Source: Clostridium manihotivorum (GTDB lineage: Bacteria > Bacillota > Clostridia > Clostridiales > Clostridiaceae). Taken from it: 64,000 bases of DNA. Below are positions 4,133 to 20,849 of this stretch, piece by piece. The stretch lies in the NCBI RefSeq assembly GCF_004015185.1, contig NZ_CP025746.1:1441776-1505775 (forward strand), in the 5' to 3' direction. The translations under genes were made by a program, and so were the position numbers. Below the pieces are notes generated by a model. That model worked only from the letters and a program-made list of their open reading frames with translations, searched no databases and was not told where the DNA came from. Position 1 is the stretch's first letter; every line of letters starts with the position of its first letter.

Positions 4133-4138
4133 AGTAGG

Positions 4139-5899
4139 ATGAGATATATAGATTTAATTAACAATTCAAAGTTTAATGAATTAATTGAGAGGTATTTAAA
4201 CAATGTTATCGATGGAATAGATGCTAAAGAATATTTCAAGCATTTTACAGAAAACTTAAAGAATCAGGAAATAATTGTTCCAGTATTGGGGATACAAGGT
4301 GCAGGAAAAAGCAGTTTTCTTAATTCTATTTTAATGGATGATAATATTTTGCCTACAGATGTTGATGAAACAACTTGTGTTCCAGTAGAAGTGAGATATG
4401 GAACTAATACAAGTAAAGCTGAAATATATTTTCATGAAAAAGAAAAGGAATTAGTAGATGTAAGCACTTTAGAAAAATATGTACATAATGATTACAATCC
4501 AGCTAATGAATTAAGAGTTTCTAAAATAGTCTTATATAATGAAAGCGAAATTTTAAAGAATAATGTTGTGCTTGTTGATTTACCAGGGGTAGGAAGTTTA
4601 ACTCCAGAAAATCAGAAAACTACATTAGATTATGTAGAAAAGCTTGTTACTGCTATATTTATGATTAGAACAGTTCCACCTATAACAAGAACTGAAAAGA
4701 ATTTTATTAACGCATTATGGCCAAAGCTTAGTAATACTATTTTTGTTCAAAATAAATGGAATGATGAAAGTAATGAAGAGGCAGAGGATGCAAAAGAGCA
4801 TAATCAAAGTGTTTTACAAAGCATTAGCAATTCACATAATGATGAAAGAGATATTAATGTTAACATAGTTAATGTGTATGAGGCAATACAAGGAAAATTT
4901 TTAGATAATGATGAGAATTATAAGAATTCTGGAATATTGAATGTAATAAAAGAGATAAAGAATATTTCTACTGACTATAATAAAGATTTGGAAAGTACTT
5001 TAAACATGAGAGTAGAGGGAATATTGAATAATATAACTTCTATAATTGAAGATAACAAAAGAATATGTAATAACCAAAATAATCAAAATGAATTAGAAAA
5101 AGAGAAAAGAATTATTGAAATAAAGCAGATTCTTAAAGAAAATAAAAAAAATATTAGGCAAATAAAAAACTATGTTTATGATGAGATGGACATTATTATC
5201 AGTAGAGTTCTAAAGGATACAAAAGAAAATATTGAAAATACAAGAACAGAACTCAGAAGAATGATAAATACAGGAATAGTTGATGGTGAACTTCTTTCAA
5301 ATATATATAAAGAAGAAGCTGAAAAGGCAATTAATAATATAATGGAAAATCTGCTAATGAACATGGAAGATCTTACTAATACACTAAATGAAAAACTTGG
5401 ATTAATAAGAATAAAAGGTTTTGATGGAAAATATGAAAATAGATCATCTTTTAATAAAAAGGAAGCATTTAAATTTGAAAAGGCTGTAAATCCAATATTA
5501 AGTATTGGAGGTGGAATAGCAGCAGTTTTTATTGTTGGTGGAGGAATACCTGGAATTATTATAGGTGCTGGAATAGGAATTATATGTTCTATATTTGGAG
5601 GACTAATAAATAAAGGTATCAAAAATGTAAGAGTTAAAAGAACAATAGAAGATTTGGAGCCTATAATAACTCAATTGAAAAAAGACTTAGATAAACAAAT
5701 TGTTGATAGTTTAAGAGGAAAAAGGGACGAGATTGAAAGTGAATTAAATAAACTAAAAGATGATTTAGAAAATGAATGTGATAAGGATATTGAAAAAATA
5801 GAAGAACAATACTCAGGTAAATTTGATGAAAAAAATATTGCAGCGCTAGATATGGATTTAGAAGATGTAAAAAGAATGAAGGAGGCTATAAATGAATAA
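4139..5899 (+). CDS. bacterial dynamin-like GTPase 2 with a membrane paddle
   Basis: G1 GIQGAGKSS, G3 DLPGVGS and G4 NKWND (NKxD). A Gly-rich hydrophobic segment GGGIAAVFIVGGGIPGIIIGAGIGIICSIFGG is present. Confidence 0.75.
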   Translation: MRYIDLINNSKFNELIERYLNNVIDGIDAKEYFKHFTENLKNQEIIVPVLGIQGAGKSSFLNSILMDDNILPTDVDETTCVPVEVRYGTNTSKAEIYFHEKEKELVDVSTLEKYVHNDYNPANELRVSKIVLYNESEILKNNVVLVDLPGVGSLTPENQKTTLDYVEKLVTAIFMIRTVPPITRTEKNFINALWPKLSNTIFVQNKWNDESNEEAEDAKEHNQSVLQSISNSHNDERDINVNIVNVYEAIQGKFLDNDENYKNSGILNVIKEIKNISTDYNKDLESTLNMRVEGILNNITSIIEDNKRICNNQNNQNELEKEKRIIEIKQILKENKKNIRQIKNYVYDEMDIIISRVLKDTKENIENTRTELRRMINTGIVDGELLSNIYKEEAEKAINNIMENLLMNMEDLTNTLNEKLGLIRIKGFDGKYENRSSFNKKEAFKFEKAVNPILSIGGGIAAVFIVGGGIPGIIIGAGIGIICSIFGGLINKGIKNVRVKRTIEDLEPIITQLKKDLDKQIVDSLRGKRDEIESELNKLKDDLENECDKDIEKIEEQYSGKFDEKNIAALDMDLEDVKRMKEAINE

Positions 5900-7673
5900 T
5901 CTTAATAGTTGTATTGAAAGACAAAATAAAATTGATTCTGTTGTGAATAAGGTTAATGATAACAGCATTATAGCAAAAAACCTTCTTATTAAAGAGAGGA
6001 TAATGAATCCTGCTCATTATATTGTAATGCTTGGAGAGACAAGCGCTGGAAAAAGTGCGTTAATAAACAGTGCTTTAAATAATAATAAAATTTTAATTGA
6101 AAATGCAAAACCTACTACTGGAGTAATTACAGAAGTTGTGATTTCTAATAAGAGTGAAGATACATATTTAGCGATAAATAAAGATTCAAGCTTAGAGGAA
6201 TTAGATAAAGAAACTTTTGATGAACTTGTAGTAAATCCTGATGATAATTTGCATAGGCTAAGATATATTGGAAAATCTAAAGATAATATGTACGAGGGAA
6301 TGAGACTTTTTGATACACCTGGATATGGATCTTTGATTAGTTATCACGAAGAAGTATTAAAAGAATTCATACCTGAGAGTGATGTTGTTGTTTATGTGGT
6401 ATCCTACAAATCGGGATTAGGTGATGATGATTTTCAATTTTTAAAATATGTTGGAGAGATAATAAACGATAACGTAGAAGTTGTACTAGCCATCAATATG
6501 TGTCCATCTCAATTAAATTCTAGCAATAAAAGAATAAGTGAAATACATGATGCAGTTAATGATTGTATACATAAAGAAGTTAAAGTATTTCTTGTAGAGA
6601 GTAATAAAGAAAAGAACTTAGATACAAAAGAATTATGGGATTATATTTATAGAAGTGTAAATAGTGAAGAGAAGATAGAAGAACTTTGCAAAACACTATA
6701 TAATTATCAAAATTATATTTTAGATGAGTGTAAAATTCGAGTAACTTCACAAATTGCAAGGATAGAATCAGCAGAAGCAGATTTAGAAGAAAAGCTAAAT
6801 TTAGATAGAGAATTTTTAAATAATAGAAAAGAAATTTTAAAGCTAATAGAAGAGACATTTACTAAAATAGCAGATAAATCTTTAACTTTAATAATCAAAT
6901 CATCAGAAAAAATAAAGAAAGAAACATATGGATTCATAGATGATTCAGATAGATGGAGTAAGAAGGAAGAAACTTTTGCATATATGCAAAATTATCATAT
7001 TCCTAAATTAGTAGAAAAAGAAACAGAAAATTTAATGAATTATATTGAAGATGAAATATGTCAATTAGATCAGAAAATTGAAAACATATTAAATACTGCA
7101 ATTAAAAATTTGCAAACTAAAGTAAGCATAGAAATACCAATATATACAGAAGTGATAGAGAGTATTGTTAAAAAGCATGTTGGAGATGGCATTAAAGAAG
7201 GTTTAAAAGAAATGTTTATGAGTGTAGGTGGAAATGGAGGTGTTGGAGCAGGGGTTGCTAATGCGGCAAGTAAAGGACTGAAAAATTTAGGAAACTTATT
7301 TGGTAAGACCTTTAGTAGAGAAACTCATAATAATTTAAAACATTTTTTAAAAGTGATAAAAGCTACATCAATTAAAGGTATATCAGTGTATTTAGCTGTT
7401 TTTACAGAAGGCATATTCTATTTATATGATGCATTAACATGGCAAGGAAAGTTAAAGGATAGAACAGAGGAAGCAATTTCTGGGTGGAAAATTGATATTG
7501 AAAAATCTGTCATTAAAGAGTTGCAGAATTTAAAAGAAGCAAATGAAGATGAAATAAATGATTTATTTGATGATTTTGCAAGAAGCTTTAATAAAGATGA
7601 GGATGAGTTAGATAGTATTGAGATAGATGAATTAATTAAGTTAAAATTAGAAATTTTAGAGCTATATAAATAA
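5892..7673 (+). CDS. bacterial dynamin-like GTPase 3
   Basis: G1 GETSAGKSA, G3 DTPGYGS and a Gly-rich segment GGNGGVGAGVANAASKG. Its start overlaps the upstream stop, indicating an operon. Confidence 0.75.
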   Translation: MNNLNSCIERQNKIDSVVNKVNDNSIIAKNLLIKERIMNPAHYIVMLGETSAGKSALINSALNNNKILIENAKPTTGVITEVVISNKSEDTYLAINKDSSLEELDKETFDELVVNPDDNLHRLRYIGKSKDNMYEGMRLFDTPGYGSLISYHEEVLKEFIPESDVVVYVVSYKSGLGDDDFQFLKYVGEIINDNVEVVLAINMCPSQLNSSNKRISEIHDAVNDCIHKEVKVFLVESNKEKNLDTKELWDYIYRSVNSEEKIEELCKTLYNYQNYILDECKIRVTSQIARIESAEADLEEKLNLDREFLNNRKEILKLIEETFTKIADKSLTLIIKSSEKIKKETYGFIDDSDRWSKKEETFAYMQNYHIPKLVEKETENLMNYIEDEICQLDQKIENILNTAIKNLQTKVSIEIPIYTEVIESIVKKHVGDGIKEGLKEMFMSVGGNGGVGAGVANAASKGLKNLGNLFGKTFSRETHNNLKHFLKVIKATSIKGISVYLAVFTEGIFYLYDALTWQGKLKDRTEEAISGWKIDIEKSVIKELQNLKEANEDEINDLFDDFARSFNKDEDELDSIEIDELIKLKLEILELYK

Positions 7674-8888: not shown

Positions 8889-9488
8889 TTAATTTGTGAA
8901 GTTACAATACTTGTCTACTTTAAATGCAAGCTTTAGTTTACTAAGAATACTTGTTTTCATATCAACAACCTTATAATAAGGAATCATTTTAAAATCGGAA
9001 TACTTCTTCATGGAATAGCCTTTAAAGAAAATATATAGTACAAGTTCCTTTTCTTTTTCATTTAGAGTATTAATGATAGAGCTTATCTGAGACTTTACTT
9101 GATTTTGGCAAATAATATCTTCAACATAATTCATATCGCAACAATCTATGTTCTCCAAGTTAGTATCTAACATAACTACCTTAGAACCATCAGTTAACTG
9201 TCTTCTTACAGATTTTCTTATAAGACAATTAACTGAATTCTTCATAGCATTAGTAGCATAAGCTACAAATCTATGTTTTTCTGGTTCATAAAGCTTTATA
9301 CAATTAAATAAAGTTTTATAGCATTCATTTCTTATATCATCAAATTCATATCCACTTACAAAAGATTTCTTACACAGATTTATTATAAAAGGGTTAAATT
9401 CTGAAACTAATGTTTCTTTAGCTTCTTCATTATCTTCCTTGCATAGCAGTACTAGATTTTCAATATGTTTATAATCCATAAATATCAC
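8889..9488 (-). CDS. sigma-70 family RNA polymerase sigma factor (small, TcdR/UviA- or ECF-like)
   Basis: 199 aa with the region 2/region 4 pattern of small sigma factors (...YATNAMKNSVNCLIRK..., C-terminal HTH-like segment). Divergent from a cell-wall hydrolase gene. Confidence 0.55.
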   Translation of the reverse strand: MIFMDYKHIENLVLLCKEDNEEAKETLVSEFNPFIINLCKKSFVSGYEFDDIRNECYKTLFNCIKLYEPEKHRFVAYATNAMKNSVNCLIRKSVRRQLTDGSKVVMLDTNLENIDCCDMNYVEDIICQNQVKSQISSIINTLNEKEKELVLYIFFKGYSMKKYSDFKMIPYYKVVDMKTSILSKLKLAFKVDKYCNFTN

Positions 9489-9546
9489 CTCTCAACTAAA
9501 ATATATGCCAGTCGGCATATATCTAAGGAAAAGGAGGTAGATACTC

Positions 9547-10248
9547 ATGAAAATATCAAAACTAGCTATAGATATAGGCCACAATGTTCAATTTGACGGG
9601 GGAGCAGTAGGTATAAGATCAGAAAATGAGCTTAATTATGAGGTAGGAACAAAGCTTATAGAAAAATGCAGAGCTGAAGGGCTAAATGTAATTAACTGCA
9701 CTCCTAAAAGTGCCACTAGCTTATATGATTCTTTAAATCAAAGAGTAAAAGCGGCTAATAATAACAATGCTGATTTCTTTATTTCCATTCATCATAATTT
9801 ATGTACTGGAGGCCATGGATCGGAGATATTATGTATTCCAGGAGGAAGAGCTGAAGAAGCTGCTAAAATAATTCTTACTGAGATCGCAAAGTTAGGTTTT
9901 ACGAATAGAGGAGTAAAAGCAAGAAATGATTTGTTTGTACTAAAAAATACTAATATGTCTGCGATACTTATAGAATGTGCTTTTTGTGATAGTCCAGTCG
10001 ATATGAATAATTATAATCCAGAGAGTATGGCAGAGGCAATATTTAAAGGGATATGCAAAGCATTTGAGCTAAATGTATCAGAAGATAATCGGTCTACTGA
10101 GCAAGCTAATTATTATATAGTAGTAAGAGGCGACACATTATATTCAATAGCTAAAAGGTATGGAACTACAGTTGAAAAAATAGCTTCACTGAATAATATT
10201 GCCAATGCTGATATTATCTATGAGGGACAGAAAATTAAGGTTAAGTAA
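9547..10248 (+). CDS. N-acetylmuramoyl-L-alanine amidase (Amidase_3) with C-terminal LysM domain
   Basis: DIGHN...ISIHHN...E motifs of the zinc amidase_3 family. The C-terminal [30 protein letters not shown]...GQKIKV is a LysM domain. Confidence 0.8.
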
Positions 10249-10440
10249 AAGTTTTAAGGAGATTGATAGAATAGATTATAATTAAAGAAAGTTGATATTT
10301 ACCAAGTTATACTAAGTGTCCACATAGCTGCAATCAAATAAAGTAAACAATAAGCTTAAATAGTAAGATAAGTAGAATATAAAGTAATATATATTTAATT
10401 AAATAGTCTATTTAGGAGATCAATTATATATACTGAATTG

Positions 10441-10478
10441 ATAAAGCCTGCAATTTTAATGGATTGCAGGCTTTTCTT
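10441..10478 (+). terminator. rho-independent terminator
   Basis: aaagcctgcaa-ttttaatggat-tgcaggcttttcttt: GC stem followed by a T-run. Confidence 0.6.
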
Positions 10479-10588
10479 TATGTGTCTATTTTATTGTAAA
10501 ACTTGAAGGAATTTATAATGGTATAAGTATATTTACTAATGTGCTTATGTGTGAATATATGACAAAGTCATAGAAGAGCAATTTTTTC

Positions 10589-11503
10589 TTAAGGTATATA
10601 AAATAATTTATAACAGTTGATATCCGAATCTAGCTCAATTCTAATTAAAGACTTAAAATCATTTTTTAAACGTTTTAAGATTATTTCATCTATATACTCT
10701 TGGGTTATCTCACTTGCAATAAACTTTCTTTTATTATTTATACAACTTACAATTTCACTACCAGTTCCTGCGAATGGGATATAAACTATTTGATCTTCTT
10801 TACTGCTAGCATCCAAAATTCTATCACACAGTTTGAGAGCTTTTACTGTGGGGTGCTTTTTACCATCTGACATGTAAAATCTTTGTTTTGAAGATTGAGA
10901 GGCTTCTGTAATATCTGACCAGATTTCATTACATAAAAGTTCATCTTCAAAATTCATATCTATCCAAACATCTGTACAACGTTTCTTATCATTCTTACGT
11001 GGTTTACCGTTCGCTCCTAAATCTTTACGATTAGTAGATTCATTTGTGTACTGTGGCTTAAAATAATAAGATGTTTCACATTTCCATGGGACCATAAAGA
11101 CTAGTTCTTCTCTACATGGAGGAAAACCTTTTTTAGTTCCGAATACATGAGTGTTTTTTTGAGTTATCCAGTTAATTACTTTGAAATATTGATTAGATTC
11201 AATCCAATCAGCAAGCTTTGGAAGGGAATATCCATTGCTATAACCGATTGCGCCCCATAGATAAAAGCTGCCAGTATTTTTTAAAATATCTCTAAATTGT
11301 AATATGCGTGTTTTGCTCCAAGCAATATATTCTTCTACATCTTCCCATTCGTAATCCCATTCAGCATCTTTTTTATTGGCTATTTTATAATAGGGTGGAT
11401 CTGCAATAATCAAATCTATTGAATGATTATTAATTAATTTACTAGTATAAAGGCAATCTTGGTTAAAAATATATCCTATCTCATTATTATTAAATAGGTC
11501 CAT
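10589..11503 (-). CDS. DNA methyltransferase, beta class (N6-adenine or N4-cytosine), type II/IV-associated
   Basis: Motif IV IIADPPY precedes motif I FAGTGSE, the beta-class order. Size is ~300 aa. Confidence 0.85.
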   Translation of the reverse strand: MDLFNNNEIGYIFNQDCLYTSKLINNHSIDLIIADPPYYKIANKKDAEWDYEWEDVEEYIAWSKTRILQFRDILKNTGSFYLWGAIGYSNGYSLPKLADWIESNQYFKVINWITQKNTHVFGTKKGFPPCREELVFMVPWKCETSYYFKPQYTNESTNRKDLGANGKPRKNDKKRCTDVWIDMNFEDELLCNEIWSDITEASQSSKQRFYMSDGKKHPTVKALKLCDRILDASSKEDQIVYIPFAGTGSEIVSCINNKRKFIASEITQEYIDEIILKRLKNDFKSLIRIELDSDINCYKLFYIP

Positions 11504-11716
11504 ATATACCTCTAAAAATTACTTTGATAAATATATATGAATGAATATTTTGTTAAAGAACATAATTAACTAGTACATTAATTATAAGTATAATTTTCAG
11601 GTTATATTATTAATAATGAGATGAAACTGGAATAAGTTATTTAATAAATTAAATTATTTCTAATTTTTTATTTTATTAATCCTAAAATTGGCCACAATTT
11701 ATATAGAGGTGATAGT

Positions 11717-13051
11717 ATGGCCAATAGGAAGAACAGAACAAATATTATGTATAAAAATCTTATAATGAAATCATTTATACAAAACAAAAGAAGAGAGCCA
11801 CTATACATAGTTATTAAATTATTAAGAAATATCAATGAAGAAGCTAAACAAGCTTTAAACTTAAATGAAGATGAGGAAAATATATTATTAAATGTTGAAG
11901 AAGAAGTTAAATTTCAGGTATATTTCGATGAGAAAGATGATGAGATATATGCAAGTATAGATGAAAATACAAATTTTATAAAGTTGGTGAGATTTGTTAA
12001 TAACAAATTTGATGAAATGAAGGAAAAAAAGTTGATTACTGGAGATTCGCAAAAAAATTGCTTAATAGGTACAATCAAATTTTTACGAGAAAAGTATGGA
12101 AGTGATTTAAGCGGTTTTCAGAGTAGAGTAAATTTTATGCTTGGTGATATTGTTTCATTTGAATTAACAAATAATCGAATCTTAAGTTCTAAAAAAATTT
12201 CAGGTACATTAACTACATATATATATAATGATATATACATGTATAAAGAAGACTATAAAAGATGTAAATTGGGAAACGTAGATCAAATATTTGAAGATCA
12301 AGATATATTACCTTGTGAAAATGTAGTAAATAGGTTTTTAGATATACTTCTTTTTGATAAAAGGATGCAATTGATTAGTGGTGAAAGGTTGAATTTTTTA
12401 TTAAAAGGTGTTCCTGGAACGGGGAAGTCGACCGCTGTTGATAACTATCTGCATAAAATTGGAGTTGTAAATACCGAAAATATTTGCAGAATAAATGTTC
12501 ATTCAGGTACTAGCAATAGTGATTTGATGCAAGGCATAGGAATAAGTTTAAAAGGAGTAGATATTTTATACACTGAAAAACAAGGTATGGTTCTTAGTTT
12601 TATTTTAAGTGCTATAAAAAATCCAGAACAAAAGTATGCATTAATATTAGAAGAAATACAGGAGAATAGTCTAAATGAAATTTTAGGAGATTTGATATAT
12701 TTGATCGAAGAGAGTAAGAGAGTGGATAATAGTTTTATTATCAAAATTAAAGAGACATTAGGTGATATAGAAACTTATGATCCGTTTAAAATTATTGATA
12801 CTTTATTAGAAAAATATCCATGGTTTTATTATATAAATATGCCTAAGTTAGTTGAAGATAATGATGATAGAAAATTTAATAAACTGATATTACCTAATAA
12901 TTTATTTGTTTTTTGTACTACTAATTACAGTGAAGAAAAAAATATATTAGAGGACAATTTATTTAGAAGATTTGAAGTTATTGATATTTTTCCAGATGAA
13001 GAACAAATAAAAGATAAATATATATATTTCAATAAAACTTCTACATTTTAA
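11717..13051 (+). CDS. McrB-like AAA+ GTPase restriction subunit (LlaJI R1-like); 3' end probably truncated or altered by IS insertion
   Basis: Walker A LLKGVPGTGKST. The ILEEIQENSLNEILGDLIYLIEESKR region resembles the McrB motif IIDEINRxNxSxxFGELxxLIE. The ORF ends inside or at the IS630 element. Confidence 0.65.
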   Translation: MANRKNRTNIMYKNLIMKSFIQNKRREPLYIVIKLLRNINEEAKQALNLNEDEENILLNVEEEVKFQVYFDEKDDEIYASIDENTNFIKLVRFVNNKFDEMKEKKLITGDSQKNCLIGTIKFLREKYGSDLSGFQSRVNFMLGDIVSFELTNNRILSSKKISGTLTTYIYNDIYMYKEDYKRCKLGNVDQIFEDQDILPCENVVNRFLDILLFDKRMQLISGERLNFLLKGVPGTGKSTAVDNYLHKIGVVNTENICRINVHSGTSNSDLMQGIGISLKGVDILYTEKQGMVLSFILSAIKNPEQKYALILEEIQENSLNEILGDLIYLIEESKRVDNSFIIKIKETLGDIETYDPFKIIDTLLEKYPWFYYINMPKLVEDNDDRKFNKLILPNNLFVFCTTNYSEEKNILEDNLFRRFEVIDIFPDEEQIKDKYIYFNKTSTF

Positions 13052-14215
13052 TGCATAGCCTGTCTATGATTTCTGTAGGGGTTTTATTTATATGTGTAAT
13101 AAACCTTTGCACTGCTTCGCTTACCCTAGATAAGGTAGGATAGAATGCATTATTAATTATTCTTGACTTAAGCCACCCCCATAACCCCTCTATCAAATTA
13201 AGTTCTGGACTATATGGTGGTAAAAATACTAACTCTAATCTATTTTTATTCTCATATAAAAAGGGCTCAAGTAGTTTTGCATGATGTATTCTTGCATTAT
13301 CTAGTATCATTACGATTTTACCCGTAGGGTATTGTTCTAGTATACACTTTAAGAATCTTTCAAATACAACTGCATCATACCTCTCATGCTCTTCACAATA
13401 TACTTTTCCTGTACCATAATCCAATATCCCTATTAATTTTACTCCAGCATTTTTACCGTAGGTTGGGATTTTACGACGCTGACCTTTCTTAAACCAAGTT
13501 TTCTGTATAGCTTGATAGTCTCTTATCATGGATTCATCTTCGAACAGAAGATGCGCTAGCTCCCCATTAATTAGTTTTTTTAGGTCTTCAAAAGTTACCT
13601 TAAATTCTTCTTGCTTTTCTTTATCAGCTTTTTTTAGTACGTAGGTTGGTCTTGTATAGCTTAGATTTAATCTATGCAAAATTTCATGGATTCCCCTGTG
13701 ACTCATGGTTATACAAAATGTTTTAATCACCCACTGCCTAATTATTTCAATAGTCCAGTTTTTTCTAGATTCAAACCCGACTTCGTCAGGAGTTTTATTT
13801 GTTACAATTTCAACTATCATGGCTTCTTGGTCTTTACTCAATTTTCTGGGAGCTCCTGTACTATGCTTCATTACTAAGCCTAGCAATCCTTTAGCTTTGT
13901 AGTTTTTAATGTAGTCTCCGACTGTATGTTGATCTAAAGAAACCATTTTAGCAATATCAACATTTGAAGCACCTTCCAAGTGCCTTAATATTACTAGGTA
14001 TCTTTTATACATTCGTACATTTTTAGTTTCCTTCATAATTGACTTTAATTCATTAATTTTTTCATTTAATTCTAATGTATTATTTGAATAAATATTATCC
14101 ATATAAATCACAACCTTTTAAATATTATTGTAATTATTTTGCACTTATTTGCGATTTATATATTTGGTAATATTCTACTATGAATTTTTATTATTGAAAT
14201 TTATATATATAAAAT
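13035..14215 (-). mobile_element. IS630-family insertion sequence (boundaries approximate)
   Basis: Contains a single DDE transposase gene with the IS630 signature LPPYSPELNLIEGLWGW. It lies between the two parts of a McrB-like reading frame. Terminal inverted repeats could not be defined confidently by eye. Confidence 0.5.
13041..14111 (-). CDS. IS630-family DDE transposase
   Basis: 356 aa with an HTH N-terminus and the DDE domain motif ...LDNARIHH...LPPYSPELNLIE... Confidence 0.9.
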   Translation of the reverse strand: MIYMDNIYSNNTLELNEKINELKSIMKETKNVRMYKRYLVILRHLEGASNVDIAKMVSLDQHTVGDYIKNYKAKGLLGLVMKHSTGAPRKLSKDQEAMIVEIVTNKTPDEVGFESRKNWTIEIIRQWVIKTFCITMSHRGIHEILHRLNLSYTRPTYVLKKADKEKQEEFKVTFEDLKKLINGELAHLLFEDESMIRDYQAIQKTWFKKGQRRKIPTYGKNAGVKLIGILDYGTGKVYCEEHERYDAVVFERFLKCILEQYPTGKIVMILDNARIHHAKLLEPFLYENKNRLELVFLPPYSPELNLIEGLWGWLKSRIINNAFYPTLSRVSEAVQRFITHINKTPTEIIDRLCIKM

Positions 14216-14580
14216 TATTTTTTAAAGCTCTGAATGAAGAAATTTCTGTTCAGTATAAAGAATATTTACATCCAGATAGATATCTAATAGGCCATGCAAA
14301 TTGGATGTTTATATATAATGTAAAAGAATTTTATCGAGCATTCATAAAACTAATAAATGAATTTAAAGAAATTAGAGAAATAGGATTTGAAGATTTTAGA
14401 ACAATTATTTGCAATATGAAATTTGAAGAAGAATGGAATTCAGAAGAAAATAAATTCAAAAAGGAATTTGTTAATATAAAGAATTGTTTAAGCAGTGATG
14501 ATACTAATTATTATGAAGTAATAAAAGCCATAATTCAAAAAGCGGAATATGAACTCTTAGAGGAAAGAGAAAATGGATGA
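14149..14580 (+). pseudogene. probable 3' remnant of the IS-split McrB-like gene; only the distal ~120 codons look genic
   Basis: The first ~20 codons are low-complexity IS-end sequence. Its stop overlaps the start of the McrC-like gene (ATGGATGA), which is the classical mcrB-mcrC coupling. Confidence 0.35.
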
Positions 14581-15931
14581 TCTAATTCTAATTAATGAAA
14601 CAGATAACATATATGAGCAACTTACTAATAAAGGAATAAATTATTCGAAATTCAAAGATAAATTAAAGATACTGAATAATACAAAATTAAATAATATGAT
14701 AGGATATTTTAAAATAAATTCAGATGGAAACTTCTATAAAATATGTATTTTGCCAAAAATAATTGATAAAAGAGCACAGAACTTAAGTGAAAATTTTGGT
14801 CAATACATTAATATTACATTAGGATTGATTTTGAAATATAAACTAAATAATTATAAATTGTTAAAAGATAATTATTTGGATTTAATTCATATGAATAGAT
14901 TAGGAAATATAGAAAAATTAGATTATTTATTAGAAAGTAAATATATTCAGGCTTTAAACTATATTGAGTTTTTCTTTAATCAATATAAAAAATATGACTA
15001 TATAGATATAAAGTTTTCAGACTTAATTATAAAAGGGAAAATCGATATACGAAGAAATATATTAGAAGTTAATAAAGCAAGGGTACACCAAATTAGACAA
15101 AAAGAAATTTTATACTCTAAAATAGCTGATATCACTATATCTGTTTTAAAGTATTTTGAGAATTTTAAGATGAAATTAATTCGCCATAATAAAAAGATAC
15201 AGTTAAAACTTCATGATTCAATAAGAACAATAAACCAAAAATTCTTGATAAAAGCTTTTCATTATACAATTGATATGATTCTATCAAATAAAAGTTATAA
15301 GTTATTTAATAAACCAGAGTTAAAACAACTATATTTGAGCCTATTAATATTATTAGATTTGGATGGATATTTTGAGTCGAATATAGGATATATAAATGTC
15401 AATAATGTATGCAAAATGGCAAGTATAGTGATTAATCCTTCTTATATTTTTGAATATTATGTATATGATTATTATATTAACCATACACAAAAATATAAAG
15501 ATATAAAATTTATAAAGATAGATAAGGAAGTAAAATTATCTATAAGATATTTAAAAAAGATTGAAAAGGACTCACTTGAAATTGAAAGTAAAATTGGTGA
15601 ACTAAATGATCAATGGAGAGAAAAGATGAGTAAGCTATGGATATTAACGACATCCGAACCGGATCTAGTTATAAAAGAACTTAGTAATAATGATATTTGG
15701 TATGATACAGTGGTGGATTGTAAGTGGAAGATATTGGATAAAAGTATTGACAAGAACGATTTGGAAAAATTGAAAATAGACTGCAAATCAAGGAATATAA
15801 ATAGAGGAAAACTAGTGTATCCATTGATAAAAACAGCAAAATATAAAAGTGTGGATTCTTTTGAAATAGATGATGAAAGATTTAGCGAAGGTATATTTCG
15901 TCTTACTATAGAAGAGTGTAAAATGATCTAA
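14573..15931 (+). CDS. McrC-like restriction nuclease subunit (PD-(D/E)xK)
   Basis: Partner position after a McrB-like gene. C-terminal EPD...D(T)VVDCKWK is consistent with a PD-(D/E)xK nuclease core. Size is 452 aa. Confidence 0.55.
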   Translation: MDDLILINETDNIYEQLTNKGINYSKFKDKLKILNNTKLNNMIGYFKINSDGNFYKICILPKIIDKRAQNLSENFGQYINITLGLILKYKLNNYKLLKDNYLDLIHMNRLGNIEKLDYLLESKYIQALNYIEFFFNQYKKYDYIDIKFSDLIIKGKIDIRRNILEVNKARVHQIRQKEILYSKIADITISVLKYFENFKMKLIRHNKKIQLKLHDSIRTINQKFLIKAFHYTIDMILSNKSYKLFNKPELKQLYLSLLILLDLDGYFESNIGYINVNNVCKMASIVINPSYIFEYYVYDYYINHTQKYKDIKFIKIDKEVKLSIRYLKKIEKDSLEIESKIGELNDQWREKMSKLWILTTSEPDLVIKELSNNDIWYDTVVDCKWKILDKSIDKNDLEKLKIDCKSRNINRGKLVYPLIKTAKYKSVDSFEIDDERFSEGIFRLTIEECKMI

Positions 15932-16078
15932 TCTGTTATAAATTAATTTGTATCAATAGTCAATTTGCAGTTATAAGCATAAAAGGCTTAATTAAAATTG
16001 TAGTTTTGAATAATATTCGTGCTAATTATAAGAGAATGGTTAATAGCGTTTAATTATATTTAGGTGATAGATTTTTAG

Positions 16079-16640
16079 AGTTTGTGCAAGCTTTGGGAGC
16101 CAGTAATAATCTGACCAGTGAGTAGTGCTGAAGAAGGATTATGGAAGTCTATTGAAGCTTGTACAAACTTTCATATTTGGCTTAAATGAAAATATAAATT
16201 TAAATATGTGTCAGCAATAGGAGAAGCTGGACCAGCTAAGCAATGCTTGTACTATATAAGTGGACCTGCATCGCGGCCAGTATGGCTTCTCTTTTTGCTG
16301 ATTTTGTTTATTGAAAATTGAAGTGATTATAATATGTCTTCAGCAAATTATATCATATGAGGTTATTAGGAAGAACGGGAAGGAAAGCAATAAAAATTAG
16401 AGAACAAAGAGTCAGGTAGGGGAGTCGCAGTATCATCTATACCTACAGTACATACGCTTGTCCATTTGGGCGTAGCCGCTAAACATTCTTTTGTGAAGTG
16501 TACAAGTAAGGACCACATAGGAAGACTTAAGAGCTTGCTTGTAAATAGGACTGGCGTTGACCTGATATAACTACTTAAGAGTTGCCTGTCCTATGTCATT
16601 TTCACAAAAGAGGGTGTTTAGCGAAGTGGACAAGCTACTT
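16079..16640 (+). ncRNA. candidate large structured noncoding RNA (unclassified)
   Basis: An ~850-bp ORF-free gap with locally elevated GC. There is a 15-bp helix 16079-16093/16155-16169 with one G.U. Nested helices 16456-16464/16627-16635 and 16477-16488/16612-16623 carry two U.G wobbles; those positions pair only on the + strand. Confidence 0.35.
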
Positions 16641-16777
16641 TAAAATAGGAAATAATAAATGTGTTCAATTAATATAAAGATCCAATCTGAATAATTTAAT
16701 ATTTTATTTATAAACGTAGAGAAGCAATGAAATAAATTTAAGTTTGTGCTAAAATTAAATTAAAGATTGGAGGAATT

Positions 16778-17674
16778 ATGGCAATGGTAATTAACTTTCC
16801 TAAAAATTTAAGAACAGATAAAAAAGGGATTGAATTTTTAGCTTTTTTGTGGGGAGTAAGTAAGAAAATCTATAAAGGCAGAATTATATGGAATTTGAAG
16901 TATACAAAAAAAATTGAAACCAATCTATTGTCTTTTTTAGGCTTAATTGCAAGAAGGATGGATAGTAGAAATAATATAATTGAAATGGTTATAAGGGATA
17001 GTAATGGAATGACAATAAAGGTATCTGATAATATATTGACTCGTTTATTTAAGAAGTATTCTTCTAATAAAAATAAATTATTAGAATATAATTTTTTAGA
17101 TGAAAACAATTCAAAAGAAGAAATAGAGATACTTTTACTTAAAAATTTAGAAGAGCTAAAATTACTATACTATTCAGACATTAAGATTTTATTAAGTGAA
17201 TTTATTGCCAACATATTTATGCATGCAACTGATAAAGAGGGGTCAATGTCTGGATATATGACAGATAAAGATGATATATTAATAAGTGTATGTAATATTG
17301 GGAGAACAATTAAACAAAATATAGAAAGTGTAAATGAATACAAATTTTTAAATGATAAAGATGCAATTTTGTGGGCTTTAAAAAAGAACAATTCCACAAG
17401 AAATAAAGAAGAAAGTGGAGGTTTAGGATTATATCTTCTTAGAAAATATATTAATAAGATTGATGCAGAAGCATATATTATTTCTGGAAAGTTTTTTATT
17501 AGCCTTTCTGGTGATAACTGCTTTGATGAAAATGATGTTAATAAATTTTATTTCAAGGAAGAATTTGAAATGAAAAGTTTTTTTCCCGGTAATTTGATAA
17601 CTTTAAAGTTTAAGAATGAGAGGAATTATGTGTTTAATAATAAAGTGTATTTACCACGAATAGATTTGTTGTGA
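16778..17674 (+). CDS. GHKL-type ATPase (HATPase_c; SpoIIAB/RsbW-like serine-kinase fold) with unknown N-terminal domain
   Basis: N-box EFIANIFMHA and G2-box ESGGLGLYLLRKYI resemble anti-sigma-factor kinases. It is the first gene of a tight three-gene operon. Confidence 0.55.
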   Translation: MAMVINFPKNLRTDKKGIEFLAFLWGVSKKIYKGRIIWNLKYTKKIETNLLSFLGLIARRMDSRNNIIEMVIRDSNGMTIKVSDNILTRLFKKYSSNKNKLLEYNFLDENNSKEEIEILLLKNLEELKLLYYSDIKILLSEFIANIFMHATDKEGSMSGYMTDKDDILISVCNIGRTIKQNIESVNEYKFLNDKDAILWALKKNNSTRNKEESGGLGLYLLRKYINKIDAEAYIISGKFFISLSGDNCFDENDVNKFYFKEEFEMKSFFPGNLITLKFKNERNYVFNNKVYLPRIDLL

Positions 17675-17691
17675 TTTGGAGGATTTAGCTA

Positions 17692-18957
17692 GTGGATTGT
17701 ATTATCGATTTTTTAAGTGATATTAAACAAAAAGACTTGAGGAGATTAGCACAGAATCAAAGTGAATGTTATGAAGATGCAATAGAGCTATATAAGGAAC
17801 TGTTTATATCGAATTTTTCACAAATTAAAGATGCTTGTAGTGATGAGAAATGTGATATAAAGAGTAAATGTAATGAATTAAGAGAAATAATTTTAGGCAT
17901 TGAAAATGCTGAAATTATAGATTTCTTTGATAAAATGAAATTAGTATATATAAATTGGATCGATGCAAAAATTAAAGATTCCTTGGAAGTATTTACAGAT
18001 ATTATGAATCAATATGAATTATGGTGTTTCTATGATACTGATATAAAAAAAGAAATATTTTTTAAAGGAAGAATAGAAAAAAATATATTAACAAGATGGG
18101 AAATGTTTCATATACCATTTAATAAAAGGTATTTAATTAAAAATCAGAGATATAGCTTAACTGGACAGCCAATAATATATTTAGGTAAATCGATTGTTGA
18201 TATAATTCATGAATTAGATATTAGTGATGAAAACATTGGTGACTTGAAGATATCTTCAATAAGAATTAAAGAAGATTTGAAAGTTTACGATTTAAGAAAT
18301 AATATATATGATTTACTTAATAAGACAGAATTCCTAGAAGTAATAGGTGGAGAAGGTATAGAAAAAAATTATAAACAAACGTTCTTTAAGATACTATTAG
18401 CATCGATATGTAGTTTCGAAAGAAAAAAAGAACATAAAGATTATACTTTTTGTGAGGAGTATGTAATACCACAAATTTTAGCTCAGACATTGAAAAATAA
18501 GGAGTATGATGGAATTATATATTTTTCAACTAAAAAATTTGAAGGTGTAAGTTTTGAAAATACTAAGGAGAATATTTCATTAACTAATAAAACTAAGTAT
18601 AAAGAAAATGTAGCTCTTTTTACTAATTTTAATAAGGATCATGTATATGATGAAGTTCTTTATAGTAAATTGGATATTAGTTCTCCAATAGATTTAACAA
18701 AATCACAGGATTTTAATATCAATCATCTTGATGAGACATGCAAGAAAATTGAATTTACAAAAAATCAAAAGGAAATTAATGATAGTCAAGTAATAGTAAC
18801 TATTTTTAAAAGGGAATTTGAAGGTATAAAAATTAATGATTCAAAATATATTGATAAAGATATGGGAAAAATGCATATATATCATTTATATTGTATTCTA
18901 AATAAAATTCTATGTAAAAGTAGTGAGGTGGTAATTAATGAAAGAAATAATAGTTAG
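17692..18957 (+). CDS. RES-domain protein (putative NAD+-targeting toxin/effector) with extra N- and C-terminal regions
   Basis: NQRYSLTGQPIIYLGKSIVDIIHEL matches the RES consensus R(F/Y)n..G.p.lYla.s...al.E. DGIIYFSTK...NVALF matches the G.l.PS...N.vlF block about 130 aa downstream. GTG start with RBS tggagga. Confidence 0.55.
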   Translation: MDCIIDFLSDIKQKDLRRLAQNQSECYEDAIELYKELFISNFSQIKDACSDEKCDIKSKCNELREIILGIENAEIIDFFDKMKLVYINWIDAKIKDSLEVFTDIMNQYELWCFYDTDIKKEIFFKGRIEKNILTRWEMFHIPFNKRYLIKNQRYSLTGQPIIYLGKSIVDIIHELDISDENIGDLKISSIRIKEDLKVYDLRNNIYDLLNKTEFLEVIGGEGIEKNYKQTFFKILLASICSFERKKEHKDYTFCEEYVIPQILAQTLKNKEYDGIIYFSTKKFEGVSFENTKENISLTNKTKYKENVALFTNFNKDHVYDEVLYSKLDISSPIDLTKSQDFNINHLDETCKKIEFTKNQKEINDSQVIVTIFKREFEGIKINDSKYIDKDMGKMHIYHLYCILNKILCKSSEVVINERNNS

Positions 18958-19249
18958 AGATATACTAAAATCTAATGTGGCTATTAGTAAAGATGACGGT
19001 GATATAGTATTTAATCAAATTAAGACTGAGATAGAGAATAAAAATAGTATTCTTATTGATTTTAAGAATATAGATTTAATAAATACAGCTTTTCTAAATA
19101 ATGCTATAGGCAAGATTTATTTTATCCCAATTGAGAAAAGAATGGATACAACTGTAAGAATAGTCAATTTCCCATTAGAAGTAATGGAGTTGCTTGAAGA
19201 AGTTATTAATACTGCTAAAGAGAAAGCTTCAATAACTGAAGATGCTTAA
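18938..19249 (+). CDS. STAS-like (SpoIIAA / anti-sigma antagonist fold, DUF4325-like) small protein
   Basis: ~100 aa, overlapping the upstream gene. Pattern ...ILIDFKNIDLINTAFLNNAIGKI... is typical of STAS/anti-anti-sigma proteins. Adjacent to a GHKL ATPase. Confidence 0.5.
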   Translation: MKEIIVRDILKSNVAISKDDGDIVFNQIKTEIENKNSILIDFKNIDLINTAFLNNAIGKIYFIPIEKRMDTTVRIVNFPLEVMELLEEVINTAKEKASITEDA

Positions 19250-19350
19250 TATACTTTTAATATATCTTTAAAGAGCTTTCATTTATGAAAGTTATATAAA
19301 AATATAAAAATATAAAATATAAAATATAAAAGTTTCTTTTAATTAATAAA

Positions 19351-19385
19351 TCATATGAAGACGCCATCTAATAGATGGCGTCTTT
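19351..19385. terminator. bidirectional rho-independent terminator
   Basis: aagacgccatct-aata-agatggcgtctttt, a perfect 12-bp stem with T-runs, between convergent genes. Confidence 0.7.
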
Positions 19386-19395
19386 TGTAAGTAAA

Positions 19396-19794
19396 CTAAA
19401 ATTCTACTATTTTTTTTAATTTTAAATACATCTCATAAGACAACCCAATCCTACCACTAATTAATCTTTTAAGGGTAGACTCACATACCCCAAGAAGCCT
19501 ACAGCACTTGCTATAAGTATATTTCTTCTTCTCCTTCCACCTCCTGACCATCTCACCAGGTTCATTAAAATAGAAATAATAATACTCATGAAAGTACTCA
19601 AGTGGTAAATCAAATTTATCACACACCTTTTTTATACTTTCAGGTTTAGGCATAACATCATGAGTCTCCCAATGAAGCACCGTATCAAAATGTTGACCTA
19701 TAATTTCAGCAAACTCTTTTTGATTTAAGCTATGTACTTTTCTTAGTTTAATTATTTTCTTACCAATAGTATCTTCTTCTAAATCCTTATACAT
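19396..19794 (-). CDS. XRE-family HTH transcriptional regulator
   Basis: N-terminal KIIKLRKVHSLNQKEFAEIIGQHFDTVLHWE is a Cro/C1-type HTH. Confidence 0.7.
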   Translation of the reverse strand: MYKDLEEDTIGKKIIKLRKVHSLNQKEFAEIIGQHFDTVLHWETHDVMPKPESIKKVCDKFDLPLEYFHEYYYFYFNEPGEMVRRWKEKKKYTYSKCCRLLGVCESTLKRLISGRIGLSYEMYLKLKKIVEF

Positions 19795-20407
19795 TTCAGC
19801 ATATAATTTTAATTGATAGGAAGAAAAGATCTTCTTAAATGTTGCACTTGAGTTCAGTTTGGTGGTGCAAACTTCGCCTCAAGTCCAAATCGCGTTTTAA
19901 TCCACTGCCTGGATCCTGTATTTGTATGTGAAAAGATAGCTTACACAAGAATAGATCAGGTAGTGTCCATAACTGATGTTATTGAGAATACAATAACAGG
20001 GATAAAGGGCATAGGTGGGCTTCAGACTAGGGGGAAGTATAGGGAAGGGTATCCTAAGTCGCCTTATGTGTAATAGAAGATAAGAAGATCATATATTATA
20101 GTATAAAGGTAGGAGTTAATGTAGCTCCTACCTTTATACTGCTTTAAAAGCATAGCATAAGTCAAAATAAGTATAGCAAATGTTAATACTTTATTAAAAA
20201 TTCGCAAATAGCTTTGGTGATTAATTTAGTTATAATAGCTACTGATTAAAATAAAATAGTATATTGCTTAATAATGTTGACGCACTGCGTCAAGAATTAA
20301 GTTGAGATTGCGATATATAAGAATATAGATATGCATCAATTAATGCATATTAATTTACATAATGGATGTAATACAGTACAATAAGAACAAAATATAGGAG
20401 TTGATGC

Positions 20408-20820
20408 AATGCCGGAATATTACAACCAGAAGTATACAAAAGAAGAGGTTGAAGTAATTTTGAAGAAGATTAAAGAGTGCATCAACGATAATTGCTATAC
20501 TATTTCAATAAATGGCAATAGAAAAAGAACATAAATTTTATTAACGAATATAGATTAAATACTAAAAAGCAGAAAGATATTTTACTTAGTATAGAGGTAA
20601 CAGATTTTTGTCATTCACTAAATAATATAAATCCTGGTTTTGAACATGAGGTTCTTTATGTTTTTTGTCTTCAAAGAGTTTTATTTAACATCTTTGGAGA
20701 AGAGGAATCTATTGATATTTATATTAAATTTAATATTATCGAATATACAGATAAAAAACGAGTAATTACAATTTCATTTCATAAAAGGAACAAGCCAATC
20801 CAGTATTTATTTAAATAATG
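20408..20820 (+). pseudogene. small ORF disrupted by a frameshift in an A-run; candidate toxin partner of the downstream Panacea-domain protein
   Basis: Frame 1 stops at ~20531. The reading frame continues in the -1 frame from ~20520 to 20817 (A5 run at agaaaaagaac). Immediately upstream of a DUF4065 gene. Confidence 0.4.
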
Positions 20821-20849
20821 GGTTGAGGTTTTGGAAGGAGGATTTCACA

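What the first reader, a model, noticed from the sequence alone, without database searches (positions are those of the whole stretch)
10589..15931. Methyltransferase + McrB-like/McrC-like (LlaJI-type) restriction locus, with the McrB-like GTPase gene apparently split by an IS630 insertion
A beta-class DPPY methyltransferase lies divergent from an AAA+ protein with a Walker A and a McrB-type ...LILEEIQENSLNEILGDLIYLIE... block. Its reading frame runs straight into an IS630-family transposase gene (13041..14111, minus). Downstream, a 120-codon ORF (14149..14580) ends in ATGGATGA, overlapping the start of a McrC-like PD-(D/E)xK protein. That is exactly how mcrB and mcrC are coupled. The simplest reading is a McrBC/LlaJI-like restriction system inactivated by an IS.
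Basis: partly seen in the sequence, partly recalled or inferred. Interest (0 to 1): 0.55.

Follow-up and report, generated by a model that had tools for sequence, protein, structure and literature searches.

The report
IS-disrupted methylase-linked McrBC-like restriction locus
A three-gene restriction-modification module in Clostridium manihotivorum (DNA methylase, McrB-like motor, McrC-like nuclease) has had its motor gene cut in two by an IS630-family insertion sequence, which is an ordinary way for such systems to be switched off.

Summary
The genes are: a beta-class DPPY methyltransferase (10589..11503, minus), a divergent McrB-like AAA+ gene, and a McrC-like gene (14573..15931) whose start overlaps the upstream stop in ATGGATGA.

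A 1185-bp IS630-family element splits the AAA+ gene. Its best-fit coordinates are 13021..14205, with 14/15 terminal inverted repeats and a TA duplication. Deleting 1187 bp restores one 558-codon frame. The two fragments align to consecutive parts of a 622-aa homologue (residues 4-498 and 497-613).

The only solved structures the AAA+ protein matches by sequence are McrB. The 452-aa partner has no family hit of its own. Its AlphaFold model (pLDDT 86.8) matches McrC best, its family keeps PD...DxK invariant, and 31 of 91 relatives hit Pfam McrBC.

In 8 of 9 related loci the pair sits beside a methyltransferase, and these belong to four different classes. This favours a LlaJI-like logic, in which methylation protects the host DNA, over a methyl-dependent Type IV enzyme.

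It is not a sequence-level member of the LlaJI family. It is absent from PADLOC.

Verdict: a real, disrupted, untested member of the already noted methylase-associated McrBC group. Interest is modest.

The parts
10589..11503 (-). Beta-class (DPPY) N6/N4 DNA methyltransferase, 304 aa, apparently intact
   Evidence: Pfam PF01555 E 1.1e-27. PADLOC MTase_II 2.4e-34. NCBIfam adenine-specific MTase PRK11524 2.5e-23, below its cut-off. It is 72% and 55% identical to the MTases in the homologous loci L001 and L002, with DPPY and the FxGxG motif invariant.
11504..11716 (.). 213-bp divergent intergenic region between the MTase and McrB-like genes; presumed promoters
   Evidence: The sequence was read directly. 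GGAGG-like AGAGGTGAT lies just upstream of the ATG at 11717. One promoter-like match is at 11566-11594, but the scan found fewer sites than shuffled controls, so it is not evidence.
11717..13020 (+). 5' part of the McrB-like AAA+ gene (codons 1 to about 435): unique N-terminal domain (about aa 1-215) plus the AAA+ core with Walker A, Walker B/EEIQEN block, consensus loop and RR finger
   Evidence: The annotated ORF runs on to 13051 through about 10 IS-encoded codons.
13019..13020 (.). TA target-site duplication, left copy
   Evidence: The exact position is ambiguous by 2-4 bp inside a (TA)n run.
13021..14205 (-). IS630-family insertion sequence, 1185 bp. TIRs are 13021-13035 TATATATTTCAATAA and 14191-14205 (reverse complement TATAAATTTCAATAA), matching 14/15
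   Evidence: Inverted repeat found. DNA similarity to related IS copies (L014 is 80% identical, also L018, L005, L021, L020) ends at window positions about 13015-13019 and 14207-14214. Length plus TSD is 1187, which is 2 mod 3, exactly the frame offset between the two gene halves.
13041..14111 (-). IS630-family DDE transposase ORF, 356 aa from GTG (353 aa from ATG 14102), intact
   Evidence: NCBIfam NF033545 255 bits against a cut-off of 100, covering model positions 1-299 of 299. Pfam DDE_3 8.4e-40 plus HTH_33, HTH_32 and HTH_29.
14206..14207 (.). TA target-site duplication, right copy
14208..14580 (+). 3' part of the McrB-like gene (about 123 native codons). It carries the family-invariant N444, H456, D458, R459, G463, H464 and W467
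   Evidence: BLASTP to P0002 residues 497-613, E 2e-24. Column conservation in 87 homologues.
14573..15931 (+). McrC-like subunit, 452 aa: N-terminal McrC-type domain plus C-terminal PD-(D/E)xK nuclease (P363-D364 ... D382-x-K384), intact. Its start overlaps the McrB-like stop by 8 nt

Best explanation
The locus is a three-gene restriction-modification module made of a beta-class N6/N4 DNA methyltransferase, a McrB-like AAA+ NTPase with its own N-terminal domain, and a McrC-like PD-(D/E)xK nuclease.

Inferred mechanism when intact. The N-terminal domain of the McrB-like subunit reads a DNA site. The AAA+ domain forms a ring whose NTP hydrolysis is stimulated by the McrC-like subunit and drives translocation. 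The McrC-like nuclease cuts. The methyltransferase marks the host's own sites so that they are not attacked. This is the LlaJI logic, not the methyl-dependent EcoKMcrBC logic.

State in this genome. An IS630-family element, 1185 bp plus a TA duplication, has inserted at codon ~435 of 558 in the McrB-like gene.
- This separates the AAA+ core from about 123 C-terminal codons that carry family-invariant residues.
- It places a transposase gene in the opposite orientation between the promoter and the McrC-like gene.
- The restriction arm is therefore most probably dead, while the methyltransferase remains as a functional orphan.

Shown: the gene split, the IS identity and ends, the McrB and McrC homology, and the methyltransferase linkage across the family. 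Inferred: methylation-protected site-specific cleavage, loss of activity, and the role of the N-terminal domain.
For: Split gene.
- The fragments align consecutively to P0002.
- Deleting 1187 bp gives a 558-aa ORF.
- 87 homologues carry the C-terminal part contiguously, with invariant residues.

Insertion sequence.
- NCBIfam IS630 255 bits against a cut-off of 100.
- TIRs and TA duplication.
- Similarity to related IS copies ends at the same positions.

McrB-like.
- Only McrB chains are hit in the PDB (6hz4 at 2.5e-10). The match covers Walker A, the Walker B signature block, the consensus loop and RRF.
- NCBIfam best hit is McrB.

McrC-like.
- PD...DxK is invariant in 91 sequences.
- hhalign puts these residues on E. 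coli McrC D244/D257/K259.
- 31 of 91 relatives hit PF10117.
- Partners from all nine loci match the family profile at E <= 1e-87.

Methyltransferase linkage.
- 8 of 9 distinct loci have an adjacent MTase.
- The MTases fall into four classes: N6_N4 (window, L001, L002), Eco57I-type (L004), C5 (L087), and N6_Mtase with or without Methylase_S (L086, L089, L090).
- The window MTase is 72% identical to that of L001.

Literature.
- LlaJI restricts unmethylated DNA using a McrB-like R1 and a PD..D/ExK R2 (PMC1459862).
- Methyltransferase-associated McrBC clades are noted in the census of PMC11090510.
Against: - No experiment and no methylome data are available.
- The recognition mode of the N-terminal domain (aa 1-215) is unknown.
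- One related locus, L091, has no adjacent methyltransferase.
- Loss of function is inferred from the truncation and from polarity, not measured.
- The exact IS ends are ambiguous by 2-4 bp inside TA runs.
- No IS-free allele of this species was available for comparison.
Confidence: 0.8

Rival explanations
1. The McrB-like/McrC-like pair is, or was, a conventional modification-dependent Type IV enzyme. On this view the neighbouring methyltransferase is an unrelated orphan or belongs to another system.
For: The closest solved relatives, EcoKMcrBC and TgMcrBC, are modification-dependent. One related locus, L091, lacks an adjacent methyltransferase. PF10117 is named for the 5mC restriction system.
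Against: Eight of nine loci, carrying four unrelated methyltransferase classes, keep a methyltransferase immediately next to the pair, often in one operon with overlapping genes. The window and L001/L002 share the same divergent MTase arrangement at 72% and 55% identity. A methyl-dependent nuclease tightly linked to a methyltransferase would risk attacking its own host.
Confidence: 0.12
2. The split is tolerated or regulatory. The 444-aa N fragment and a C fragment translated from the TTG at 14149 would reassemble, or the IS would excise precisely and act as an on/off switch for restriction.
For: Both halves, the McrC-like gene, the transposase, the TIRs and the TSD are all intact, so the insertion looks recent and the frame is restorable. 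A TTGAAA-16-TATTTT match spans the right IS end at 14194-14221.
Against: The in-frame start is a TTG inside the IS, with no evident ribosome-binding site, and it adds about 19 foreign residues. The promoter scan performs worse than shuffled controls in this AT-rich DNA. Three residues that are invariant in 87 homologues are changed in the catalytic consensus loop (R405S, D407E, K409N), which points towards relaxed constraint. No evidence of excision is available.
Confidence: 0.04
3. The IS sits in an intergenic spacer between a full-length 444-aa AAA+ gene and an unrelated small gene.
For: GenBank annotates the 444-aa product as a complete 'AAA family ATPase'.
Against: The 14149..14580 product aligns to the C terminus of the same homologues that the 444-aa product matches. 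Full-length homologues are about 560-700 aa with a contiguous, highly conserved C-terminal region. Deletion of the IS restores the frame.
Confidence: 0.01

Closest known systems
LlaJI (Lactococcus lactis pNP40; O'Driscoll et al. 2006, PMC1459862)
   Same: Restriction is carried out by two subunits. One has a unique N-terminal specificity half fused to a McrB-type NTPase. The other is a PD-(D/E)xK nuclease. Both are linked to methyltransferase gene(s), so the expected behaviour is restriction of unmethylated DNA.
   Different: LlaJI has two co-oriented 5mC methyltransferases, whereas this locus has one divergent beta-class N6/N4 (DPPY) methyltransferase. No member of the partner family hits Pfam RE_LlaJI. 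There is no sequence match to the solved LlaJI.R1 N-terminal domain or to any other non-McrB chain. A direct comparison with the pNP40 proteins could not be run.
EcoKMcrBC / Thermococcus gammatolerans McrBC (canonical Type IV)
   Same: A hexameric McrB-type AAA+ core. The Walker A motif, the DEINRAN-like block (EEIQENS here), the N of the consensus loop and the RR finger all align. The partner has a McrC fold and a PD...DxK site. The two genes are translationally coupled by overlap.
   Different: The canonical systems lack a cognate methyltransferase and cut modified DNA. The N-terminal domain here is unrelated. NCBIfam McrB scores 43 bits against a cut-off of 637. The consensus loop is NYSEEKN (family NYRDDKK) where E. 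coli McrB has NTADRS.
LlaI / BsuMI non-canonical McrBC systems (bioRxiv 10.64898/2026.08.31.748284)
   Same: Methyltransferase-accompanied McrBC homologues that act site-specifically. One chain of the B. subtilis YdjA-YdiS model (9a5m_A) is among the top Foldseek hits of the partner.
   Different: Those systems use three restriction genes, with a separate R1 DNA binder, an R2 motor and an R3 nuclease. Here the N-terminal domain is fused to the motor, giving a two-gene arrangement as in LlaJI and canonical McrB.
Methyltransferase-associated McrBC clades in the census of Bell et al. 2024 (PMC11090510)
   Same: That paper reports branches of McrB-like GTPases with a conserved association with predicted DNA methyltransferases and calls the association probably ancestral. 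The family found here fits that description.
   Different: The census deferred description of these clades to a later paper. Which of its branches this family belongs to was not determined here.
IS630 family insertion sequences
   Same: A single DDE_3 transposase with N-terminal HTH domains, a length of about 1.2 kb, short TIRs and a TA target duplication.
   Different: The element could not be named because ISfinder was not available. The nearest copy found is 80% identical in DNA (Clostridium sp. CS001, L014).

Membership tests
McrB-type AAA+ NTPase | P-loop / Walker A GxxGxGK[ST] | tested here: met
   GVPGTGKS at aa 231-238 aligns to E. coli GPPGVGKT 201-208 and is invariant in 87 homologues.
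McrB-type AAA+ NTPase | Walker B with the McrB signature block (E. coli IIDEINRANLSKVFGEV) | tested here: met
   LILEEIQENSLNEILGDL aligns to E. coli residues 277-294. E312, E313, Q315, E316 and N317 are present in 87 of 87 homologues.
McrB-type AAA+ NTPase | [quoted passage not shown] | tested here: inconclusive
   N403 aligns to E. coli N333. The family loop is N-Y-R-D-D-K-K, which fits NxxD. The window copy reads N-Y-S-E-E-K-N, with R405S, D407E and K409N, changes found in none of the 87 homologues.
McrB-type AAA+ NTPase | Arginine finger pair (E. coli R348, R349) | tested here: met
   R417 and R418 are invariant and align to E. coli R348/R349.
McrB-type AAA+ NTPase | Curated equivalog score (NCBIfam PRK11331, EcoKMcrB) | tested here: not met
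   43 bits against a cut-off of 637, and only aa 225-339 match. The protein is a McrB-like relative, not an EcoKMcrB equivalog.
McrB-type AAA+ NTPase | GTP specificity and McrC-stimulated hydrolysis | not testable with these tools
   This needs biochemistry. Non-canonical R2 proteins are reported to be nucleotide-promiscuous (10.64898/2026.08.31.748284).
McrC | C-terminal PD-(D/E)xK nuclease with catalytic D...(D/E)xK | tested here: met
   P363, D382 and K384 are invariant and D364 is at least 90% conserved in 91 sequences. hhalign places these residues on E. coli D244 and D257-A-K259.
McrC | Overall McrC fold, including the N-terminal domain | tested here: met
McrC | Pfam PF10117 (McrBC) sequence match | tested here: not met
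   The window protein has no Pfam hit. However, 31 of 91 family members hit PF10117, best E 3e-10, and the L087 partner carries it. The window protein is therefore a divergent member reached by transitivity.
McrC | Gene immediately downstream of, and coupled to, the McrB-like gene | tested here: met
   The overlap is 8 nt in the window. The pair is adjacent in all nine loci.
LlaJI-type R-M | R1 = unique N-terminal specificity half plus McrB-like NTPase; R2 = PD-(D/E)xK subunit | tested here: met
   The architecture is as described, with no family hit for aa 1-215. Whether that domain determines specificity was not tested.
LlaJI-type R-M | Two 5mC methyltransferases in the same operon | tested here: not met
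   The locus has a single divergent PF01555 beta-class N6/N4 methyltransferase.
LlaJI-type R-M | R2 belongs to Pfam RE_LlaJI | tested here: not met
   No such hit was found for the window protein or for any of the 91 relatives.
LlaJI-type R-M | Restricts unmethylated DNA, with protection by the cognate methyltransferase | not testable with these tools
   This is inferred only, from methyltransferase linkage in 8 of 9 loci.
IS630 family | DDE_3 transposase above the curated family cut-off | tested here: met
   NF033545 scores 255 bits against a cut-off of 100 over the full model.
IS630 family | Terminal inverted repeats and TA target-site duplication | tested here: met
   TIRs match 14/15 and are flanked by TA on both sides. 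The ends agree with where similarity to five related IS copies stops. There is an ambiguity of 2-4 bp inside the (TA)n runs.
Beta-class N6/N4 DNA methyltransferase | Motif IV (D/S)PPY N-terminal to motif I FxGxG; PF01555 | tested here: met
   DPPY at aa 35-38 and FAGTGSE at aa 244-250. PF01555 scores 97.9 bits against a cut-off of 26.7. The target base and target site were not determined.

The most novel reading that the evidence does not exclude
The McrB-like/McrC-like pair found here may belong to a portable restriction cassette that is blocked by methylation and can be coupled to any kind of methyltransferase. The partners seen are beta N6/N4, Eco57I-type, C5, and HsdM+HsdS in place of HsdR. 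If so, the family would include 'Type I-like' systems that lack HsdR, such as the one reported in hypervirulent Klebsiella (PMC12456054). The window's unmatched N-terminal domain would then be a new site-specific reader of unmodified DNA.
Probability: 0.35. Interest if true: 0.5.

Novelty: new member of a known kind. Interest (0 to 1): 0.3.

Why it matters
For this genome, it means the strain probably carries an orphan methyltransferase and has lost one restriction barrier. That is useful to know for genetic work with C. manihotivorum and for reading its methylome.

More generally, the locus gives a clean, restorable example of a methyltransferase-linked McrBC clade. Deleting 1187 bp would restore it. 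The clade is missing from PADLOC, and its nuclease subunit escapes Pfam. Defence-system annotation pipelines would therefore miss the system and label its parts 'AAA family ATPase' and 'hypothetical protein'.

Tried and rejected
- Megablast of the IS region, and blastn of the ORF-free 15932..16777 stretch, against plasmids: no match.
- tblastn of the repaired protein against plasmids: only distant AAA or DUF3578 hits below 35% identity.
- Second IS copy in the window: none.
- Genome-collection scan with the transposase: 80 related loci returned, but not the source genome itself, so no identical IS copy or empty site was available.
- Exact-protein look-ups of the transposase with either start codon: not on record.
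- phmmer and two profile searches of the McrC-like protein against PDB sequences: nothing. Homology showed only in hhalign and in the fold searches.
- First AF2 model built from 6 sequences: too poor at pLDDT 65. It was replaced by the 91-sequence model.
- PADLOC: no hit for either restriction subunit.
- Promoter scan: fewer hits than shuffled controls, so uninformative.
- Rfam on 10000..19500: nothing.
- pNP40 (DQ534432) for direct LlaJI comparison: not in the collection.
- The idea that the window copy is globally decayed was rejected. It has 6 of 86 conserved-column violations, within the range of its close relatives, which have 2 to 12.


Full report
**Source and layout**

The window comes from Clostridium manihotivorum. 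The 444-aa and 452-aa products are 100% identical to NCBI entries on a 6.36-Mb contig, where they are annotated 'AAA family ATPase' and 'hypothetical protein'.

- a 304-aa ORF on the minus strand (10589..11503);
- a divergent 444-aa ORF (11717..13051);
- a 356-aa minus-strand ORF (13041..14111) that overlaps the end of the 444-aa ORF;
- an ORF at 14149..14580;
- a 452-aa ORF (14573..15931) whose ATG lies in ATGGATGA together with the upstream TGA.

**Methyltransferase**

The protein matches Pfam N6_N4_Mtase (E 1.1e-27) and PADLOC Type II MTase models. DPPY sits at residues 35-38 and FAGTGSE at 244-250. That order is motif IV before motif I, the beta arrangement. It is full length and keeps all shared motifs relative to the methyltransferases of the two closest homologous loci, to which it is 72% and 55% identical. 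It therefore looks functional.

**The split gene**

A database search with the 444-aa fragment found about 500 relatives. Most are 560-700 aa long.

Against the nearest intact relative, P0002 (622 aa, 43% identity):
- the N fragment aligns to residues 4-498;
- the 14149..14580 product aligns to residues 497-613 (E 2e-24).

These are consecutive parts of one protein. Removing 1187 bp restores a single 558-codon frame, reading ...FPDEEQIKDKYIKLFFKALNEE.... The spacing of this junction matches P0003 and P0004.

The lost C-terminal portion is not dispensable. In an alignment of 87 homologues it carries invariant or nearly invariant residues: N444, H456, D458, R459, G463, H464 and W467. Of the 143 codons of the downstream ORF, the first ~19-20 are IS sequence, from a TTG start. 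About 123 codons are native.

**The insertion sequence**

The transposase scores 255 bits on NCBIfam's IS630 model, against a cut-off of 100, over the whole model. It also has DDE_3 and three HTH Pfam domains.

An inverted repeat brackets the element. DNA similarity to five related elements from other clostridia (up to 80% identity) ends at window positions about 13015-13019 and 14207-14214.

The only solution that keeps both ends in register is:
- IS = 13021..14205 (1185 bp);
- TIRs TATATATTTCAATAA and TATAAATTTCAATAA, matching 14 of 15;
- TA at 13019-20 and at 14206-07.

Because the ends lie in (TA)n runs, the boundary is uncertain by 2-4 bp. The total of 1187 bp is fixed by the reading frames.

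There is only one copy in the window. No identical copy or empty site could be retrieved.

**McrB-like identity**

The repaired protein hits only McrB chains among all PDB sequences (6hz4 at 2.5e-10, 6ut6, 7vsr, 6ut3). McrB is also its best NCBIfam hit, though far below the equivalog cut-off.

The Walker A motif, the Walker B/signature block, the asparagine of the consensus loop and the arginine pair all align with E. coli McrB.

PADLOC has no model that matches. Residues 1-215 match nothing. Only the closest relatives share that N-terminal region. More distant family members carry other N-terminal domains, including LRRs.

**McrC-like identity**

The 452-aa protein has no Pfam, NCBIfam, PADLOC or PDB sequence hit, even when searched as a profile.

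A profile search of 1.84 billion representative proteins found about 260 relatives. In 91 of them P363, D382 and K384 are invariant and D364 and W385 are nearly so.

Further evidence:
- hhalign against E. coli McrC gives a weak match (E 9e-4, probability 22%) that places these residues on D244 and D257-A-K259.
- An AlphaFold model built on the 91-sequence alignment reached pLDDT 86.8 and pTM 0.83.
- Four of its five significant Foldseek hits are McrC chains, at 1e-9 to 4e-6. The fifth is the B. subtilis YdjA-YdiS model.
- 31 of the 91 relatives hit Pfam PF10117 directly, and none hits RE_LlaJI.

**Is the methyltransferase part of the system?**

Gene neighbourhoods were retrieved for nine distinct loci that encode family members. 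In all nine, the AAA+ gene is followed by a member of the same partner family (E <= 1e-87), usually with overlapping stop and start.

Eight of the nine have a methyltransferase directly adjacent:

| Loci | Adjacent methyltransferase |
|---|---|
| window, L001, L002 | N6_N4, divergent |
| L004 | Eco57I-type |
| L087 | C5 |
| L086, L089, L090 | HsdM-type N6_Mtase with an S-subunit-like gene |

Only L091 lacks one.

Linkage to four unrelated methyltransferase classes argues that methylation is functionally coupled to the nuclease. The simplest coupling is protection of self DNA, as shown experimentally for LlaJI (PMC1459862) and described for LlaI and BsuMI (10.64898/2026.08.31.748284). The McrBC census of Bell et al. 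already noted methyltransferase-associated McrB clades and deferred their description (PMC11090510).

This step is inference. No methylome or cleavage data exist for this system.

**Consequence of the insertion**

The N fragment keeps the N-terminal domain and the nucleotide-binding core. It loses the conserved C-terminal region and ends in about 10 IS-encoded residues.

The McrC-like gene is now separated from its promoter by an oppositely oriented transposase gene, and it loses its translational coupling to a translated upstream gene. Restriction is therefore most probably abolished, while modification persists.

The intact state of both halves, of the McrC-like gene (1 of 25 conserved-column violations), of the transposase and of the TSD suggests a fairly recent event.

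One oddity remains. Three residues that are invariant in 87 homologues are changed in the catalytic consensus loop: R405S, D407E and K409N. Each is a single-nucleotide change. This may reflect relaxed constraint, but the protein as a whole is no more divergent than its close relatives.

**Comparison and verdict**

| Question | Answer |
|---|---|
| What it most likely works like | LlaJI, with a fused reader-motor subunit plus a nuclease subunit, protected by a methyltransferase |
| Sequence-level family membership | A divergent McrB/McrC branch. It is not an EcoKMcrBC equivalog, not in the LlaJI Pfam family, and not of the three-gene LlaI/BsuMI type |

The finding is a real but ordinary event, an IS knocking out a restriction gene, in an uncharacterised member of a group that has already been flagged. 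Interest is modest.

Noticed in passing
window 12919-12942 (codons 402-409 of the repaired McrB-like gene): The catalytic consensus loop reads TNYSEEKN. All 87 homologues have N-Y-R-(D/E/S)-D-K-K. R405S, D407E and K409N are unique to this copy, and each is a single-nucleotide change. This may be decay after inactivation, or a pre-existing defect.
   Followed up: partly
window 568-7673: Three tandem dynamin-family GTPase genes (836, 586 and 593 aa; PF00350), with a 356-aa helical ORF between the first two. This is a bacterial dynamin-like cluster, possibly a defence system, just upstream of the R-M locus.
   Followed up: no
window 16778-18957: A closely spaced gene pair: a 298-aa protein with a weak HATPase_c / anti-sigma-kinase-like match and a 421-aa protein with no family. 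Neither has a PADLOC hit. It could be another uncharacterised defence pair in the same island.
   Followed up: partly
window 15932-16777: An 846-bp stretch with no ORF above 50 aa and with higher G+C (about 0.35 against 0.22-0.27 around it). It has no Rfam match and no plasmid match. Its nature is unknown.
   Followed up: partly
window 19396-21854: An HTH_3 regulator (minus strand) and a 343-aa SocA/Panacea-domain antitoxin-like protein with a MqsA-like N terminus. Together with the items above, this suggests a defence or mobile-element island.
   Followed up: no
L086 3014-9988; L089 2032-8964; L090 2077-9288: In Arcobacter-group genomes the same McrB-like/McrC-like family follows HsdM (PF02384) and an HsdS-like gene (PF01420 in L089), with no HsdR. 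The McrC-like partner there is about 730 aa, with an extra C-terminal region. This resembles the 'Type I-like R-M without HsdR next to McrBC' reported in Klebsiella (PMC12456054).
   Followed up: partly
L002 6001-9076 (also L003): The homologue P0003 is only 501 aa. It ends soon after the point that corresponds to the window's IS site, and a 245-bp gap precedes its McrC-like gene. This may be another independently truncated copy of the motor gene.
   Followed up: no
window 8889-10248: A sigma-70 region-2 protein (minus strand) and an Amidase_3+LysM cell-wall hydrolase. A strong bidirectional terminator-like hairpin at 10443-10474 separates them from the methyltransferase gene.
   Followed up: no
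alignment A4 (N-terminal regions of distant AAA+ family members): The majority consensus of the N-terminal regions of the more distant homologues contains FGSGNLT ... NPxxGG. These resemble methyltransferase motifs I and IV, so some family members might be methyltransferase-motor fusions. This was not verified.
   Followed up: no
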